64,000 nucleotides of DNA. Source: a virus. Taxonomy: Duplodnaviria; Caudoviricetes. A program made the translations under genes and the position numbers. Shown here piece after piece: positions 2,716 to 48,212 of the stretch. Numbering within the stretch: the first letter of the stretch is position 1; each line of letters opens with the position of its first letter. A model generated the notes under the pieces. The model searched no databases. It was not told the origin of the DNA and saw only the letters and a program-made list of their open reading frames with translations. Location: IMG/VR virus record IMGVR_UViG_3300020187_001966; one strand, written 5' to 3'.

Positions 2716-2931
2716 ATGAAAATTATCGACTCATATACCAAAGAAGAAAAACTCAGCGTAATTATGCTACAAGACGAAGTCTTTAGTGTAGCATATTATG
2801 AAAATGATAAATGGGTAGGCGGTATTGAATATCCAAATAAACATATTAATTATGTCAAAGATGCGGCAAGTAATTGGATAGATGGCATTCTAACCAGAGA
2901 AACTATCCAAGAATACGGAAAAGTTTCTTAA
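2716..2931 (+). CDS. Hypothetical protein
   Basis: ORF with GAGGA RBS. Confidence 0.65.
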   Translation: MKIIDSYTKEEKLSVIMLQDEVFSVAYYENDKWVGGIEYPNKHINYVKDAASNWIDGILTRETIQEYGKVS

Positions 2932-2949
2932 ATTAATTCAAACTATTTT

Positions 2950-3040
2950 ATAACCTATTGAAAACACTGGAAACCTTTGTTCTGTTTTTTGTTGACTTCC
3001 TGATCTAGAACTGCTAGAACATTAGTATAAGTTAAACAAA
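2950..3040 (+). promoter_or_regulatory. Repeated early promoter module, copy 1 (degenerate hairpin)
   Basis: TAACCTATTGAAA + imperfect hairpin + TTGACT -35; related copies at 32580 and 50004. Confidence 0.6.
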
Positions 3041-43661: not shown

Positions 43662-43761
43662 TGGCTCTGGGGGTAGGATTCGAACCTACACGATAAATAT
43701 TTTGCGAACATCTACCACACGATAAACAGTCGTGCGTGTCTACCACTTTCACCACCCCAGA
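43662..43761 (-). tRNA. Non-canonical type II tRNA, anticodon GUU (Asn), 10-bp variable arm
   Basis: Reverse complement: TCTGGGG/CCCCAGA acceptor, G73, CCA; D arm GTG-AAAGTGGTAGA-CAC; CACGA-CTGTTTA-TCGTG; V arm GGTAGATGTT-CGCAA-AATATTTATC; GTAGG-TTCGAAT-CCTAC. Confidence 0.9.
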
Positions 43762-43768
43762 TCAATTT

Positions 43769-44611
43769 TTAGGCGGCTTTGTCTAAACTTTGTAGTTTAT
43801 CCAGTGCGGCAATCATACGTGTCATGCCAATGCCACCACCTACTCTTTGGAAGAAGTCAAACTTGAGGAACTCTTCTAGTTCTGCTTCTACACGTTCTTT
43901 ACCAAACAATTTAAACAGCAGCTCAGCATAGTCTCCGTCTACAATACTGTGGAATGTATCACGCATCATATCAACATCACAACTACGTTCTGCTGATCCA
44001 ATAGTTTCCATACCACCTAAGATAACATCCATCTTCTTAGCAGTATTGCCATCATCGTTACGTGCCATGTTCCAGAAAGGTGATGTTAGTTCTGGGAAGT
44101 CTGTAATTAAACAACTACCAAAGTTCATATCCATTGCTAATTCGTGTTGTGCGTCCATTTCAGTTGATTGACTTACACCAAAGTGTTTTTGCCAGTCGCT
44201 GTATGTTTTTTCTGTTAGTGGGTCAAAGCCCAAGTAATCACATAGTTCAATTTCCATCTTTTTAAGATCATCTACATCGCCCGGCATCTCAAACTCAAAC
44301 ATTGGGAAGATAATGTCGTGTCTGCCTGGTATAGCGTTTGGTTCCTGTCTATAGGACGTTGACACACAAAAAAAGCCCTTACTATCGGGCTTGCTTAATA
44401 ATTCATGTTCTAACCACATCTGGCCTGTTTGCGGTAATGGCCAAACCTGGTCTGCGTAATTGTATGTTGCTACATTGAACGGATCTTCACATGCGGCAAG
44501 TATGCTTAGTCTATTTTGGGTATGTACTTCTAAGAAGCCTTTGTCCAAAAAAAATGACCTTAAAAGGCCAACTGTGTCTGTAAATTTTTGTGGGTTTATG
44601 AGTTGCGTCAT
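43769..44611 (-). CDS. Class IIb aaRS catalytic-core-only protein, AsnRS-like
   Basis: Motif 1 LRSFFLDKGFLEVHT, LPQTGQMWLE, motif 2 YRQE...RH..FPMFEFE, ITDFP...PFW.M, METIGSAER, motif 3 GGGIGMTRM; no N-terminal OB domain. Confidence 0.85.
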   Translation of the reverse strand: MTQLINPQKFTDTVGLLRSFFLDKGFLEVHTQNRLSILAACEDPFNVATYNYADQVWPLPQTGQMWLEHELLSKPDSKGFFCVSTSYRQEPNAIPGRHDIIFPMFEFEMPGDVDDLKKMEIELCDYLGFDPLTEKTYSDWQKHFGVSQSTEMDAQHELAMDMNFGSCLITDFPELTSPFWNMARNDDGNTAKKMDVILGGMETIGSAERSCDVDMMRDTFHSIVDGDYAELLFKLFGKERVEAELEEFLKFDFFQRVGGGIGMTRMIAALDKLQSLDKAA

Positions 44612-44712
44612 CTTTTTTTCCTTTTCTGAAATTCAGCCTAAAAAAAATTAGCTCAAAAAAATTTGAGTGTGTTTTTTCTATCCAGTCTATTTAGTCTTTT
44701 CTATAATAAGGC

Positions 44713-44743
44713 TTGACATCCTCTTGTGTTTAGTATATAAATA
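44713..44743 (+). promoter_or_regulatory. Composite sigma70 / late promoter of tmRNA
   Basis: TTGACA-N17-TATAAA overlapping TATAAATA. Confidence 0.7.
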
Positions 44744-44747
44744 GACT

Positions 44748-45090
44748 GTAACGTTGAAGTGATTTGACGACTATACTGGACCCGGGGGCGGTACCCGGCG
44801 ACTCCACCATAAACACATTAGGTTTGAAATATAACCTCTCTTTCCCGAGATGATAACTCGATATAGAGGACCTAGAAATAGGGTAAAGAATAAGAGTGCT
44901 AGTGTGTTTTTGATGGGGTCGAAATAGGATCGACAGGTAGGATAGATGAGTGGAGTTACCGGGATATAAGCGCCGTTACCGCGAATAAACTTTCTAAATG
45001 CAAACGCAAATAGAGCGCCAGAAATGGCTTTAGCTGCCTAATTAGGTAAGTGGGGGTTTGTAACGCACCTAGCAACAGAAGCGTTACACT
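44748..45090 (+). ncRNA. ssrA: Two-piece (circularly permuted) tmRNA, tag ANANRAPEMALAA
   Basis: Acceptor piece ends CCGGGGGCGGTACCCGGCGACTCCACCA (44809); coding piece starts GGGGTCGAAATAGGATCGAC (44915); G3-U70 pair; tag 45000-45041. Confidence 0.92.
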
Positions 45091-47085: not shown

Positions 47086-47601
47086 ATGAAACAATACATA
47101 ACAAGTTACCAAAACTTTCCAATTGATGGAATTGATTATAAGGATGTAGCAAGTTTATGCGCATCACAAGATGGTTACGCAGAAGCAAATAACTTTATAT
47201 ACAGTAACTTACTAAAATATTGTCCTGTAGATAAAATTATTGGTATTGATGCTCGTGGATTTATATTTGCTAGTGTGTTTGCTCATCGTACAAGAGGCCC
47301 ACTAGTACTAGCACGGAAACCTGGTAAACTTCCTGGTAAGATAGCTGAAAAAGAATACGATTTAGAATACGGAACAAATAAATTACAAATACAAGCAGAT
47401 AGTATTGAAGCAGGAGACCGTTGCCTTATTATTGATGACTTAATGGCAACTGGTGGCACAATGTGCGCAGTATTGGATTTAGTACAAGAATTAAATGCTT
47501 TTACTGTGGCAGTAGCAACTGTTATTGACCTACCTAAATTAGGTGGAAGCGACTTAGTAAAAGCTCGTGGTATACCATTTTACACAGGTGTTGAATACTA
47601 A
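47086..47601 (+). CDS. apt: Adenine phosphoribosyltransferase
   Basis: FPIDGIDYKD, GIDARGF, RKPGKLPG, YDLEYG, IIDDLMATGGT. Confidence 0.92.
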   Translation: MKQYITSYQNFPIDGIDYKDVASLCASQDGYAEANNFIYSNLLKYCPVDKIIGIDARGFIFASVFAHRTRGPLVLARKPGKLPGKIAEKEYDLEYGTNKLQIQADSIEAGDRCLIIDDLMATGGTMCAVLDLVQELNAFTVAVATVIDLPKLGGSDLVKARGIPFYTGVEY

Positions 47602-48212
47602 TGCAACACAATACACATGGATTTGAGATAGAAGAAAACGAACATGATGTTGTTGATAAAGACTATCCAGAAATTAAAGCAAGAGTAGAACAAACTGAAT
47701 GGGTAGTAAAATTAAAAAACCAAGCAGGTGAAGAATGGAAAACAAAATGTACAGATCACTATGCTTGGAAAGCTGCAGAATATATTATGGAATTGGAGAA
47801 GCAACTAATGGTATTTAGAACAGGCGCAGACTTATTTGAAGTAGGTGACTTTACAAGTCACGCAGGAAATAAACTAGCATGGAAGATTGAGTGCGATGCT
47901 ATACGCCCAGAGTGGTGGGACGGATTAGCACGTATGATTATGGATTATCAAACAGAACCTTTTAGTAAGGTAGTTGGTATTCCACGTGGCGGAATGGCAT
48001 TAGCACACGCTATGGAAAAATATGTAACACCAGGCGATCATCCTTGGATGGTTGTGGATGATGTATATACTACAGGTACAAGTTTTAGAGAATTCTGTAC
48101 AGACAATCAAACAATGTTTGCATACAAGTGGTGCGCATTTGCTCGTAAGCCTATTGAAGGCAATGAGTCACATGACGTAAGAGCATTGTTTACTATGCCA
48201 CAAAGTACTTGA
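47601..48212 (+). CDS. Type I PRTase-like (PyrE-like) domain with N-terminal extension
   Basis: LFEVGDFTSHAG, GIPRGG, PRPP loop VVDDVYTTGTS. Confidence 0.75.
   Translation: MQHNTHGFEIEENEHDVVDKDYPEIKARVEQTEWVVKLKNQAGEEWKTKCTDHYAWKAAEYIMELEKQLMVFRTGADLFEVGDFTSHAGNKLAWKIECDAIRPEWWDGLARMIMDYQTEPFSKVVGIPRGGMALAHAMEKYVTPGDHPWMVVDDVYTTGTSFREFCTDNQTMFAYKWCAFARKPIEGNESHDVRALFTMPQST

What the first reader, a model, noticed from the sequence alone, without database searches (positions are those of the whole stretch)
43662..43761. Chimeric 100-nt type II tRNA: Asn anticodon, Leu/Ser-type body, U37
Seen: a perfect 7-bp acceptor with U1-A72 and discriminator G73 plus encoded CCA; a 3-bp D stem with large loop (GTG-AAAGTGGTAGA-CAC) like type II tRNAs; anticodon loop CU-GUU-UA; a 25-nt variable region folding into a 10-bp stem (7 Watson-Crick, 3 G-U). 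Known: canonical tRNA-Asn is type I with A37 (t6A); U1-A72 is the bacterial GatCAB determinant; long V arms are SerRS/LeuRS-type determinants, and G73 plus a long arm is SerRS-like. Inference: the intact pairing argues for selection rather than decay. The tRNA could be Asn-charged by the neighbouring enzyme, could be Ser-charged by host SerRS and so mistranslate AAC/AAU codons, or could evade host anticodon nucleases or t6A-dependent recognition.
Basis: partly seen in the sequence, partly recalled or inferred. Interest (0 to 1): 0.85.

Follow-up and report, generated by a model that had tools for sequence, protein, structure and literature searches.

The report
Phage asparagine tRNA with long arm
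A marine phage carries a real asparagine tRNA built on a leucine-tRNA-like body with a long extra arm; it always sits just after a shortened synthetase-like gene, which in bacteria behaves as a pyrimidine-synthesis enzyme, so why the two are coupled is an open and testable question.

Summary
Window 43662-43761 (-) is a 100-nt tRNA (Rfam 47 bits) with anticodon GUU, U37, U1-A72, G73, encoded CCA, a 3-bp Leu-like D stem and a 10-bp variable-arm hairpin.

It is not decay or a sequencing error. I collected 93 distinct homologues. All keep GUU, U1-A72 and G73. Every stem covaries. The arm is always a hairpin of 2-12 bp. Position 37 is U (62), A (25) or C (6).

The tRNA is the 3' half of a near-obligate cassette with a 280-aa AsnRS-like core:
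- ligase to tRNA: 76 of 80 loci, plus one cut by a contig end
- tRNA to ligase: 114 of 114 loci
- also present in Prochlorococcus phages P-SSM2, P-SSM5 and P-SSM7

Two results cut against the "private synthetase/tRNA pair" reading. First, a separate lineage of long-armed tRNA-Asn occurs in over 500 enterobacterial phage records that lack the enzyme. Second, cellular relatives of the enzyme mostly coexist with a normal AsnRS. They sit beside pyrD or pyrE-pyrF in 10 of 20 loci, and their genomes lack PyrB (30 of 32).

Best reading: an Asn-identity tRNA loaded by the host route. The reason for the coupling is unresolved. This scan has flagged the same cassette on other genomes. I found no paper describing it.

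The parts
43662..43761 (-). Type II tRNA-Asn(GUU), 100 nt including encoded CCA
   Evidence: Rfam RF00005 47.1 bits. Cloverleaf MFE, z -2.9. Family model R1 107.9 bits.
43723..43729 (-). Anticodon loop C32-U33-G34-U35-U36-U37-A38; the anticodon GUU lies at 43725-43727
   Evidence: Infernal alignment. GUU is invariant in 93 of 93 homologues; position 37 is U/A/C.
43690..43717 (-). Variable region, 28 nt. The hairpin at 43692-43716 has a 10-bp stem and loop CGCAA.
   Evidence: Family range is 13-39 nt, always a hairpin.
43662..43664 (-). Encoded 3' CCA, preceded by discriminator G73 at 43665
   Evidence: Sequence. CCA is encoded in 90 of 93 homologues and G73 is present in 93 of 93.
43769..44611 (-). 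280-aa AsnRS-derived class IIb catalytic core without an anticodon-binding domain; the 5' gene of the cassette
   Evidence: PF00152 E 7.6e-17. AF2 model pLDDT 96. Nearest folds are AsnRS and archaeal/eukaryotic AspRS cores, TM about 0.75. Profile against PDB: AsnRS 4e-15, above AspRS, AS-AR and EpmA.
44703..44732 (-). Weak sigma-70-like promoter match upstream of the cassette (possible shared promoter)
   Evidence: Consensus scan only; 1 site found against 3.8 expected. Not evidence of function.

Best explanation
The 100-nt gene is a genuine, selected tRNA. It carries the full bacterial asparagine identity set (anticodon GUU, G73, U1-A72, encoded CCA) on a tRNA-Leu-like type II body.

It is the downstream half of a two-gene cassette: an AsnRS-derived core, 7 nt of spacer, then the tRNA. 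The cassette moves as a unit among marine T4-like phages.

Most likely mechanism:
1. The tRNA is transcribed with the enzyme gene and cut out by host processing enzymes.
2. It is loaded by the host's own asparagine route. That is a non-discriminating AspRS reading GUU and G73, followed by GatCAB reading U1-A72, or AsnRS where the host has one.
3. It reads AAC/AAU codons.

The long arm is an inherited structural feature of variable length, not a Ser or Leu identity mark. U37 is a common lineage variant.

The neighbouring enzyme is probably not the tRNA's synthetase. Its cellular relatives behave as an enzyme at the dihydroorotate step of pyrimidine synthesis.

Shown here: the gene, its conservation and covariation, the cassette linkage, and the cellular context of the enzyme family. 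Inferred: co-transcription, charging route, ribosomal use, and the reason for the linkage.
For: Real tRNA.

Selection: 24 consensus pairs, 16 with double compensatory changes. The variable arm folds in every one of the 38 distinct sequences, with several pair types at each level.

Identity marks, in 93 distinct sequences: U1-A72 93 of 93, G73 93 of 93, GUU 93 of 93, CCA 90 of 93. Pairs 2:71 and 3:70 vary.

U1-A72 fits GatCAB hosts:
- Only 4 of 201 sampled genomes of the class of G006 (an Alphaproteobacteria MAG) have an AsnRS over the cut-off.
- The window carries an alpha-type permuted tmRNA.
- The enterobacterial-phage long-armed tRNA-Asn, whose hosts have AsnRS, has G1-C72 instead.

A long arm is compatible with tRNA-Asn without the enzyme: CC31, T5-like Stitch and Phapecoctavirus nepoznato have 83-85-nt tRNA-Asn(GUU). 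There are 637 matching phage records, 549 near full length. Only 9 phage records hold the enzyme.

The enzyme is probably not a synthetase:
- Carriers have a full AsnRS in 35 of 55 genomes.
- PyrB is over the cut-off in 2 of 32 carriers, against 14 of 14 controls and 121 of 151 Flavobacteriales. Fisher p = 1.7e-7 for 1/13 against 121/150.
- PyrE is present in 26-31 of 32 carriers.
- The gene lies next to pyrD in 8 and next to a pyrE-pyrF fusion in 2 of 20 cellular loci, across Bacteroidota, Alphaproteobacteria, Myxococcota and Chlamydiae.
- Enzymes with and without the tRNA share active-site residues and show no group-specific indels.
Against: A host-charged translation tRNA does not explain the near-obligate linkage in both directions. 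Of 80 ligase loci, 76 hold the complete tRNA and one holds a copy cut by a contig end. All 114 tRNA loci with enough flank hold the ligase.

The tRNA found beside the P-SSM2 ligase is this one; only a 6.8-kb stretch of that genome was scanned. From memory, P-SSM2 encodes a single tRNA. If so, its host has a similar base composition, which makes a codon-supply motive weak.

A pyrimidine at position 37 (68 of 93) rules out t6A. C33 occurs in 3 sequences and non-canonical 32/38 in 5. This is unusual for an efficient decoder and hints at relaxed ribosomal constraint.

Expression, processing and charging are not shown. Only assembled contigs from RNA libraries cover the locus.

The host of this contig is inferred, not known. 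The absence of AsnRS in Prochlorococcus is from memory only.
Confidence: 0.4

Rival explanations
1. Private (orthogonal) pair. The anticodon-domain-less AsnRS-like enzyme itself attaches Asn to this tRNA. It recognises the acceptor end (U1-A72, G73) and perhaps the long arm instead of the anticodon. This would give AsnRS-less hosts a direct Asn-tRNA route during infection.
For: The cassette is near-obligate, with a 7-nt spacer on the same strand. All class II motifs and an AsnRS-type pocket motif (Q-x-x-Q-x-x-L-E rather than the AspRS K) are conserved. The nearest folds and profiles are AsnRS. Likely hosts lack AsnRS. The tRNA beside the P-SSM2 ligase is this one.
Against: Relatives 42-60% identical, with the same conserved residues and no distinguishing indel, work in cells without any dedicated tRNA. 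They mostly coexist with a normal AsnRS and sit in pyrimidine gene neighbourhoods. The protein is very acidic (median pI 4.7, net charge -19). Long-armed tRNA-Asn occurs without the enzyme in other phages. Megaphage homologues sit with ordinary type I tRNA-Asn elsewhere in the genome.
Confidence: 0.2
2. Metabolic tRNA. The tRNA serves the enzyme rather than the ribosome. For example, in hosts that make Asn only on tRNA, it could act as a scaffold on which host ND-AspRS and GatCAB make Asn that feeds an Asn-using, dihydroorotate-forming enzyme. Alternatively it could be a direct substrate or cofactor of that enzyme.
For: The linkage is obligate in both directions. The marks read by AspRS and GatCAB (GUU, G73, U1-A72) are invariant, whereas ribosome-critical loop positions 32, 33, 37 and 38 drift. 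The enzyme has an AsnRS-like, amide-type pocket. Its family is tied to pyrD and pyrE-pyrF and to loss of PyrB and PyrC. One cellular locus has the enzyme followed by a type I tRNA-Asn (L172). The window places the cassette beside nucleotide-salvage genes.
Against: The proposed chemistry (Asn as pyrimidine precursor, tRNA as Asn source) is my inference and has no precedent that I know of. Cellular enzymes need no dedicated tRNA. One L172-type adjacency among about 65 loci could be chance (roughly 7% by my estimate). Whether the hosts lack free Asn was not tested.
Confidence: 0.2
3. Defence evasion. The odd features (pyrimidine 37, long arm) make a replacement tRNA-Asn that host tRNA-cutting defences cannot recognise. 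The tRNA still works as tRNA-Asn. This reading can be combined with the best explanation.
For: Phage tRNAs with anticodon-loop substitutions that resist host nucleases are documented (PMC10264068, PMC11555353; cited). Long-armed tRNA-Asn recurs in at least two unrelated phage lineages, which suggests a shared selective pressure.
Against: Position 37 is not fixed (A in 25 of 93), and the enterobacterial lineage keeps the canonical CUGUUAA loop. No Asn-specific nuclease is known in the likely hosts. This reading does not explain the linkage to the enzyme.
Confidence: 0.1
4. Mistranslation. Host SerRS (or LeuRS) charges the long-armed, G73 tRNA, so AAC/AAU codons are read as Ser (or Leu).
For: A long variable arm plus G73 resembles the bacterial tRNA-Ser identity set (established knowledge, recalled). 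The body is Leu-like.
Against: Pair 2:71 varies (C-G 76, U-A 10, G-C 6). Pair 1:72 is U-A, not G-C. Pair 11:24 is U-A. G73 in place of A73 blocks bacterial LeuRS (recalled knowledge). Arm length ranges from 2 to 12 bp, which does not fit an arm-measuring enzyme. Proteome-wide Asn-to-Ser change would harm the phage's own proteins.
Confidence: 0.03
5. Cis-acting RNA only. The tRNA-shaped element serves mainly as a processing or stability signal at the 3' end of the enzyme's mRNA and is not aminoacylated.
For: The 7-nt spacing and obligate position 3' of the ORF.
Against: GUU, G73, U1-A72 and the encoded CCA are invariant, and the T and D loops are canonical. That is more than a processing signal needs.
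Confidence: 0.05

Closest known systems
Bacterial type I tRNA-Asn (e.g. E. coli asnT/U/V/W)
   Same: Anticodon GUU, discriminator G73, U1-A72, C32/U33/A38, 7/5 acceptor/T architecture.
   Different: The variable region is a 13-39-nt hairpin instead of 5 nt. The D stem is 3 bp and the D loop is Leu-like. Position 37 is U in this copy (U or C in 68 of 93 homologues), so t6A37 is impossible.
Long-armed tRNA-Asn of enterobacterial phages (CC31, T5-like Epseptimavirus, Phapecoctavirus, Karam- and Slopekvirus)
   Same: Phage-encoded; GUU, G73, encoded CCA; a short variable-arm hairpin, often with a GNRA loop; annotated simply as tRNA-Asn.
   Different: A separate sequence lineage (model R1 gives only 40 bits). 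It has G1-C72, the canonical CUGUUAA loop with A37 and a different D arm. It lies inside tRNA clusters, and these phages have no AsnRS-like gene.
Bacterial or phage tRNA-Leu (type II)
   Same: D arm nearly identical to the window's own tRNA-Leu(UAG) at 822-906. The same one unpaired base before and two after the variable hairpin. tRNA-Leu genes are the best non-family hits of the family model, 53-65 bits.
   Different: G73 instead of A73, U1-A72 instead of G1-C72, and anticodon GUU.
Long-armed tRNAs with non-Leu/Ser/Tyr anticodons: nematode nev-tRNAs and bacterial allo-tRNAs (recalled from the literature, not checked here)
   Same: A type II body carrying an anticodon of another amino-acid family.
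   Different: Those are charged according to their body (Leu or Ser). Allo-tRNAs have 8/4 or 9/3 acceptor/T stems. This tRNA is 7/5 and carries the acceptor-end marks of its anticodon's amino acid.
AsnRS catalytic domain, archaeal asparagine synthetase AS-AR (PDB 3P8T) and EpmA, as comparators for the partner enzyme
   Same: Class IIb core. AS-AR and EpmA are likewise core-only paralogues with non-tRNA-charging roles. The pocket motif is AsnRS-like.
   Different: 17-21% identity to any solved structure. It falls far below every curated family cut-off. The cellular context points to pyrimidine synthesis, which is not known for any of these.
tRNA-dependent asparagine formation (ND-AspRS plus GatCAB)
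   Same: The tRNA keeps the marks this pathway reads (GUU/G73 for AspRS, U1-A72 for GatCAB). Likely hosts lack AsnRS.
   Different: No phage gat or aspS genes were seen. Whether a type II tRNA is accepted by this pathway is untested.

Membership tests
tRNA (Rfam RF00005) | Cloverleaf scoring above the curated gathering score | tested here: met
   47.1 bits against 29, full-length match 1-71.
Type II (long variable arm) tRNA | Variable region longer than 10 nt that forms a stem-loop, with a 3-bp D stem | tested here: met
   28-nt region with a 10-bp stem. Family range 13-39 nt, always a hairpin.
Type II (long variable arm) tRNA | In bacteria the anticodon belongs to Leu, Ser, Tyr or Sec | tested here: not met
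   GUU (Asn) in 93 of 93 homologues.
Bacterial tRNA-Asn | Anticodon GUU, G73 and U1-A72 | tested here: met
   All three are invariant in 93 distinct homologues.
Bacterial tRNA-Asn | Type I body and A37 (the t6A site) | tested here: not met
   Long arm. U37 in this copy; U (62), A (25), C (6) across the family.
Bacterial tRNA-Asn | Charged with Asn, directly or via Asp-tRNA and GatCAB | not testable with these tools
   Needs aminoacylation assays or tRNA-seq.
tRNA-Ser (SerRS substrate) | Conserved G2:C71 and C11:G24 together with the long arm and G73 (E. coli identity set, recalled) | tested here: not met
   Pair 2:71 is C-G, U-A or G-C. Pair 11:24 is U-A in the window.
tRNA-Leu | Discriminator A73 (recalled identity rule) | tested here: not met
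   G73 in 93 of 93. The D arm is Leu-like.
allo-tRNA | 8/4 or 9/3 acceptor/T-stem geometry (recalled) | tested here: not met
   7-bp acceptor and 5-bp T stem.
Asparaginyl-tRNA synthetase (partner gene) | N-terminal anticodon-binding OB domain, and a score above the asnS family cut-off | tested here: not met
   Only profile positions 29-300 of the PF00152 core are matched. TIGR00457 gives 29 bits against a cut-off of 342.6.
Asparaginyl-tRNA synthetase (partner gene) | Class IIb catalytic fold with an AsnRS-type pocket motif | tested here: met
   Foldseek TM 0.72-0.78 to AsnRS cores. The profile aligns Q..Q..LE with the AsnRS QSSQLYLE.
Archaeal asparagine synthetase AS-AR (partner gene) | Membership by curated model NF005055 | tested here: not met
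   23.9 bits against a cut-off of 389. PDB profile hit to 3P8T is only 1.2e-7, weaker than to AsnRS.

The most novel reading that the evidence does not exclude
The tRNA is a metabolic partner of the enzyme, not (or not only) a translation adaptor. The AsnRS-derived core would be a new enzyme that forms dihydroorotate and replaces PyrB and PyrC. In hosts that make asparagine only on tRNA, the phage would then bring a dedicated long-armed tRNA-Asn, on which host AspRS and GatCAB build the Asn the enzyme uses. That would be tRNA-dependent feeding of nucleotide synthesis. A weaker version is that the pair is a natural anticodon-blind orthogonal synthetase/tRNA system.
Probability: 0.2. Interest if true: 0.9.

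Novelty: new variant of a known kind. Interest (0 to 1): 0.68.

Why it matters
Textbooks restrict long-armed bacterial tRNAs to Leu, Ser, Tyr and Sec. Here an Asn-identity tRNA of that build is conserved in hundreds of abundant ocean phages, and a second lineage occurs in hundreds of enterobacterial phages. The tRNA class rule is therefore broken routinely in viruses.

Standard tools mislabel the marine form: ARAGORN calls it Asp, Gly, Glu or Stop. Phage tRNA censuses and codon-usage studies will therefore miscount it.

The strict coupling to an AsnRS-derived enzyme is the more important puzzle. The enzyme's cellular relatives look like a missing early pyrimidine enzyme. If so, either a new enzyme-tRNA relationship exists, or a very abundant phage metabolic gene has been misannotated as 'tRNA ligase' since 2005. 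Either answer is directly testable, because P-SSM2, P-SSM5 and P-SSM7 and their Prochlorococcus hosts are in culture.

Tried and rejected
- Sequencing error or pseudogene: rejected, given 93 distinct covarying homologues.
- Expression: four marine metatranscriptome runs hold the locus, but only as assembled contigs. Transcription, ends and processing cannot be read. No verdict.
- Literature: eight of the nine searches run concerned the tRNA and the enzyme, and eight papers were read. I found only a table row 'tRNA ligase, T4-GC 194' (PMC3037559). Nothing describes a long-armed tRNA-Asn or the cassette.
- Profile-based locus search with alignment A2 failed because no stretch was conserved enough.
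- Antisense T4-type late promoter inside the conserved UAUUUA of the arm: considered from the sequence and dropped, because the motif does not match consistently across variants.
- Enzyme elements specific to tRNA-linked copies: none found. There are no indels, only scattered substitutions.
- Enzyme as replacement AsnRS in cells: rejected, because 35 of 55 carriers have a full AsnRS.
- Enzyme as AsnA analogue: AsnA is absent in 5 of 5 carriers and AsnB present in 3 of 5. This neither supports nor excludes the idea, and the pyrimidine signal overtook it.
- Residue-level comparison with AS-AR was not possible, because the tool prints only the top alignments.
- Whether Prochlorococcus or SAR11 genomes specifically lack AsnRS or Asn synthetases could not be tested, because no named handles were available.
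- No protein-RNA docking tool was available, and I did not spend the protein-protein complex job.

Full report
**1. The observation**

The minus strand of window 43662-43761 reads as a complete tRNA. Its parts are:
- a 7-bp acceptor stem with U1-A72
- D stem GUG/CAC with an 11-nt loop
- anticodon stem CACGA/UCGUG with loop C-U-G-U-U-U-A
- a 28-nt variable region holding a 10-bp hairpin (7 Watson-Crick pairs, 3 G-U) with loop CGCAA
- T arm GUAGG-UUCGAAU-CCUAC
- discriminator G73 and an encoded CCA

Rfam's tRNA model scores it 47.1 bits against a gathering score of 29. It places the 25-nt insert in the variable region and GUU at the anticodon. The minimum-energy fold is this cloverleaf, with z = -2.9 and 0 of 200 shuffles as stable. 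ARAGORN finds the same coordinates but calls it Asp(atc), because it mis-registers the anticodon arm. In related loci it calls the same gene Asp, Gly, Glu, Ile or Stop, or misses it altogether.

**2. Surroundings**

The window is an IMG/VR viral contig of 65 kb, about 19% complete. Seven nucleotides upstream on the same strand ends a 280-aa ORF (43769-44611). It consists only of a class II D/K/N synthetase catalytic core (PF00152) and falls far below every curated AsnRS, AspRS or AsnA family cut-off. On the other side lie an alpha-type permuted tmRNA and a nucleotide-salvage block: a BMP binding protein, a 2OG oxygenase and adenine phosphoribosyltransferase. Permuted tmRNA and curli genes are described for pelagimyophages and the OM43 phage Melnitz (PMC9004378, PMC7029224). 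I therefore infer that the host is a streamlined marine proteobacterium. That is inference only.

**3. A conserved family**

The enzyme gene recovers at least 596 IMG/VR loci, more than 8000 clusters at 90% identity and 685 clusters at 50% identity.

A covariance model built from 38 distinct tRNAs finds the long-armed tRNA just downstream of the enzyme gene, on the same strand. It is complete in 76 of the 80 best loci and cut by the contig end in one more. Three loci (two distinct sequences) lack it.

The same pair is present in the cultured Prochlorococcus phages P-SSM2, P-SSM5 and P-SSM7, where it is annotated 'tRNA ligase' plus 'tRNA-Asn'.

Searching from the tRNA side with a sequence pattern gave 118 loci. 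In 112 the enzyme lies roughly 1-100 nt upstream, in 2 it lies about 330 nt upstream, and 4 have too little flank to judge. The linkage is therefore near-obligate in both directions, while the flanking genes differ from locus to locus.

**4. Anatomy across 93 distinct sequences**

| Feature | Count or range |
|---|---|
| U1-A72 | 93 of 93 |
| G73 | 93 of 93 |
| GUU anticodon | 93 of 93 |
| Encoded CCA | 90 of 93 |
| Position 37 | U 62, A 25, C 6 |
| C33 | 3 sequences |
| U32/C38 | 5 sequences |
| Variable region | 13-39 nt, bimodal (13-17 and 27-39 nt) |

- Pairs 2:71 and 3:70 vary with compensation.
- The variable region always folds into a hairpin of 2-12 bp. Short arms often end in GNRA loops.
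- RNAalifold finds double compensatory changes in 16 of 24 consensus pairs.
- Each level of the variable stem shows several pair types.
- The window's 10-bp arm and U37 are thus common states of a variable family. They are neither errors nor unique features.

**5. Origin of the body**

The D arm almost matches the phage's own tRNA-Leu(UAG) at 822-906, and the unpaired bases flanking the variable hairpin are the same. tRNA-Leu genes are the best non-family hits of the model at 53-65 bits, against 44-50 bits for ordinary tRNA-Asn. The molecule looks like a tRNA-Leu body refitted with the Asn anticodon and acceptor end.

**6. Long-armed tRNA-Asn without the enzyme**

Coliphage CC31, the T5-like Salmonella phage Stitch and the Phapecoctavirus nepoznato each carry an 83-85-nt tRNA-Asn(GUU). 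It has a 3-4-bp variable stem with a GAAA loop, G73, G1-C72 and the canonical CUGUUAA loop.

BLAST finds this lineage in 637 phage records, 549 of them near full length. Only nine phage records contain the enzyme. Two conclusions follow:
- A long arm on tRNA-Asn is a recurrent phage design and does not need the enzyme.
- Where the host has AsnRS, pair 1:72 is G-C. The marine lineage keeps U-A, the known GatCAB mark.

Of 201 sampled genomes in the class of an alphaproteobacterial carrier, only 4 have an AsnRS over the cut-off.

**7. What the partner enzyme is**

A confident model (pLDDT 96) is closest to AsnRS and to archaeal/eukaryotic AspRS cores. The family profile ranks AsnRS (4e-15) above AspRS (2e-13), AS-AR (1e-7) and EpmA (1e-4). 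It aligns a Q..Q..L-E motif with the AsnRS QSSQLYLE rather than with the AspRS lysine.

The family also occurs in cells, at 42-60% identity. Carriers include Weeksellaceae/Moheibacter, Chitinophagales, Aureispira, Alphaproteobacteria, Myxococcota, Chlamydiae, Dependentiae, CPR bacteria and DPANN archaea. None of about 65 such loci has the long-armed tRNA. One (L172) has an ordinary tRNA-Asn 250 nt downstream.

Tests on the carrier genomes:
- **AsnRS.** A full-length AsnRS is present in 35 of 55 carriers, so the paralogue is not their AsnRS.
- **PyrB.** It is present in 14 of 14 control genomes and in 121 of 151 Flavobacteriales, where the paralogue occurs in 1 of 151. Fisher p = 1.7e-7.
- **PyrC.** The multi-type dihydroorotase passes in 3 of 32.
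- **PyrE.** PyrE is present in 26-31 of 32.
- **Neighbourhood.** In 20 cellular loci examined, the gene lies directly beside dihydroorotate dehydrogenase in 8 and beside a pyrE-pyrF fusion in 2. These span four phyla.

Enzymes from tRNA-linked and cellular loci share all conserved active-site residues and have no distinguishing indels. Both groups are very acidic.

The most economical reading is that the family works at the dihydroorotate step of pyrimidine synthesis. The phage copy would then be a nucleotide-supply gene rather than a synthetase. The exact reaction is unknown. An Asn-type pocket makes 'Asn plus CO2 plus ATP gives dihydroorotate' conceivable, but that is my speculation.

**8. 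Synthesis**

Firm conclusions:
- The tRNA is real and under purifying selection.
- It carries Asn identity marks on a Leu-like type II body.
- In marine phages it is locked to an AsnRS-derived gene.

Likely: it is loaded by the host route that reads GUU, G73 and U1-A72, and it decodes Asn codons.

Unexplained:
- Why is the linkage so strict?
- Why do positions 33 and 37, which matter on the ribosome, drift while GUU, G73 and U1-A72 never do?

These two facts keep two bolder readings alive: a private anticodon-blind pair, and a 'metabolic tRNA' that serves the enzyme. Serine or leucine mischarging is unlikely, because 2:71 varies, 1:72 is U-A, position 73 is G and arm length is unconstrained.

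**9. Novelty and earlier work**

GenBank has annotated these genes for years as 'tRNA-Asn' and 'tRNA ligase'. The only mention I found in papers is a table row (PMC3037559). Other agents of this scan have flagged the same cassette on several other genomes. Here I re-tested two of their leads, the enterobacterial long-armed tRNA-Asn and the pyrimidine gap. Both held.

Noticed in passing
window 44688-45090 (+): Phage-encoded two-piece (permuted) alpha-type tmRNA: Rfam alpha_tmRNA 127 bits, tag ANANRAPEMALAA. It is transcribed divergently from the cassette. Its conserved acceptor and T-arm parts reach very high depth in RNA-library contigs, probably from host tmRNAs.
   Followed up: partly
L003 (NC_006883.2, P-SSM2) 2886-2973 (-), i.e. 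record about 162082-162169: The GenBank tRNA-Asn feature of P-SSM2 (164094-164179) lies about 2 kb from the real gene. The coordinates fit the sister record GU071092 instead. ARAGORN and the family model place the tRNA directly after the 'tRNA ligase' gene.
   Followed up: yes
L146:2449-3816 (+), Chitinophagales chromosome: In this genome the AsnRS-like gene is flanked by pyrD upstream and by a 456-aa Amidohydro_3 protein downstream. That protein belongs to the dihydroorotase/hydantoinase superfamily and is a candidate second component of an alternative dihydroorotate route.
   Followed up: no
Carrier genomes G211, G215, G218-G220, G223, G224, G227, G228, G230, G008 and others: PyrE lies in open frames of about 453-545 aa. 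In L147 and L141 these are PyrE-PyrF (OMP decarboxylase) fusions resembling eukaryotic UMP synthase.
   Followed up: partly
L172:2521-2592 (+): A high-GC cellular MAG has an ordinary 72-nt tRNA-Asn(GUU) 250 nt downstream of its AsnRS-like paralogue, in the same order and on the same strand as the phage cassette. This may be chance, or it may be the ancestral arrangement.
   Followed up: partly
L099-L105, L116 (MAGs labelled Flavobacteriaceae, Legionellales, Neomarinimicrobiota, Poseidoniia, Pacearchaeota): Marine MAG contigs whose enzyme is 61-81% identical to the window's. Six of the eight hold the full cassette (L099-L102, L105, L116). They look like phage contigs binned into cellular genomes. 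L101 has the longest tRNA seen in the model searches (107 nt).
   Followed up: partly
L048:1407-1500, L049:2950-3043, L053:2864-2957: ARAGORN reports 94-nt tRNA-Ile(UAU) genes in the tRNA clusters that follow the cassette in some contigs. This may be a second unusually long phage tRNA.
   Followed up: no
window 47601-48212 (+): A 203-aa ORF at the end of the salvage operon has no Pfam or NCBIfam match at E 0.01.
   Followed up: partly
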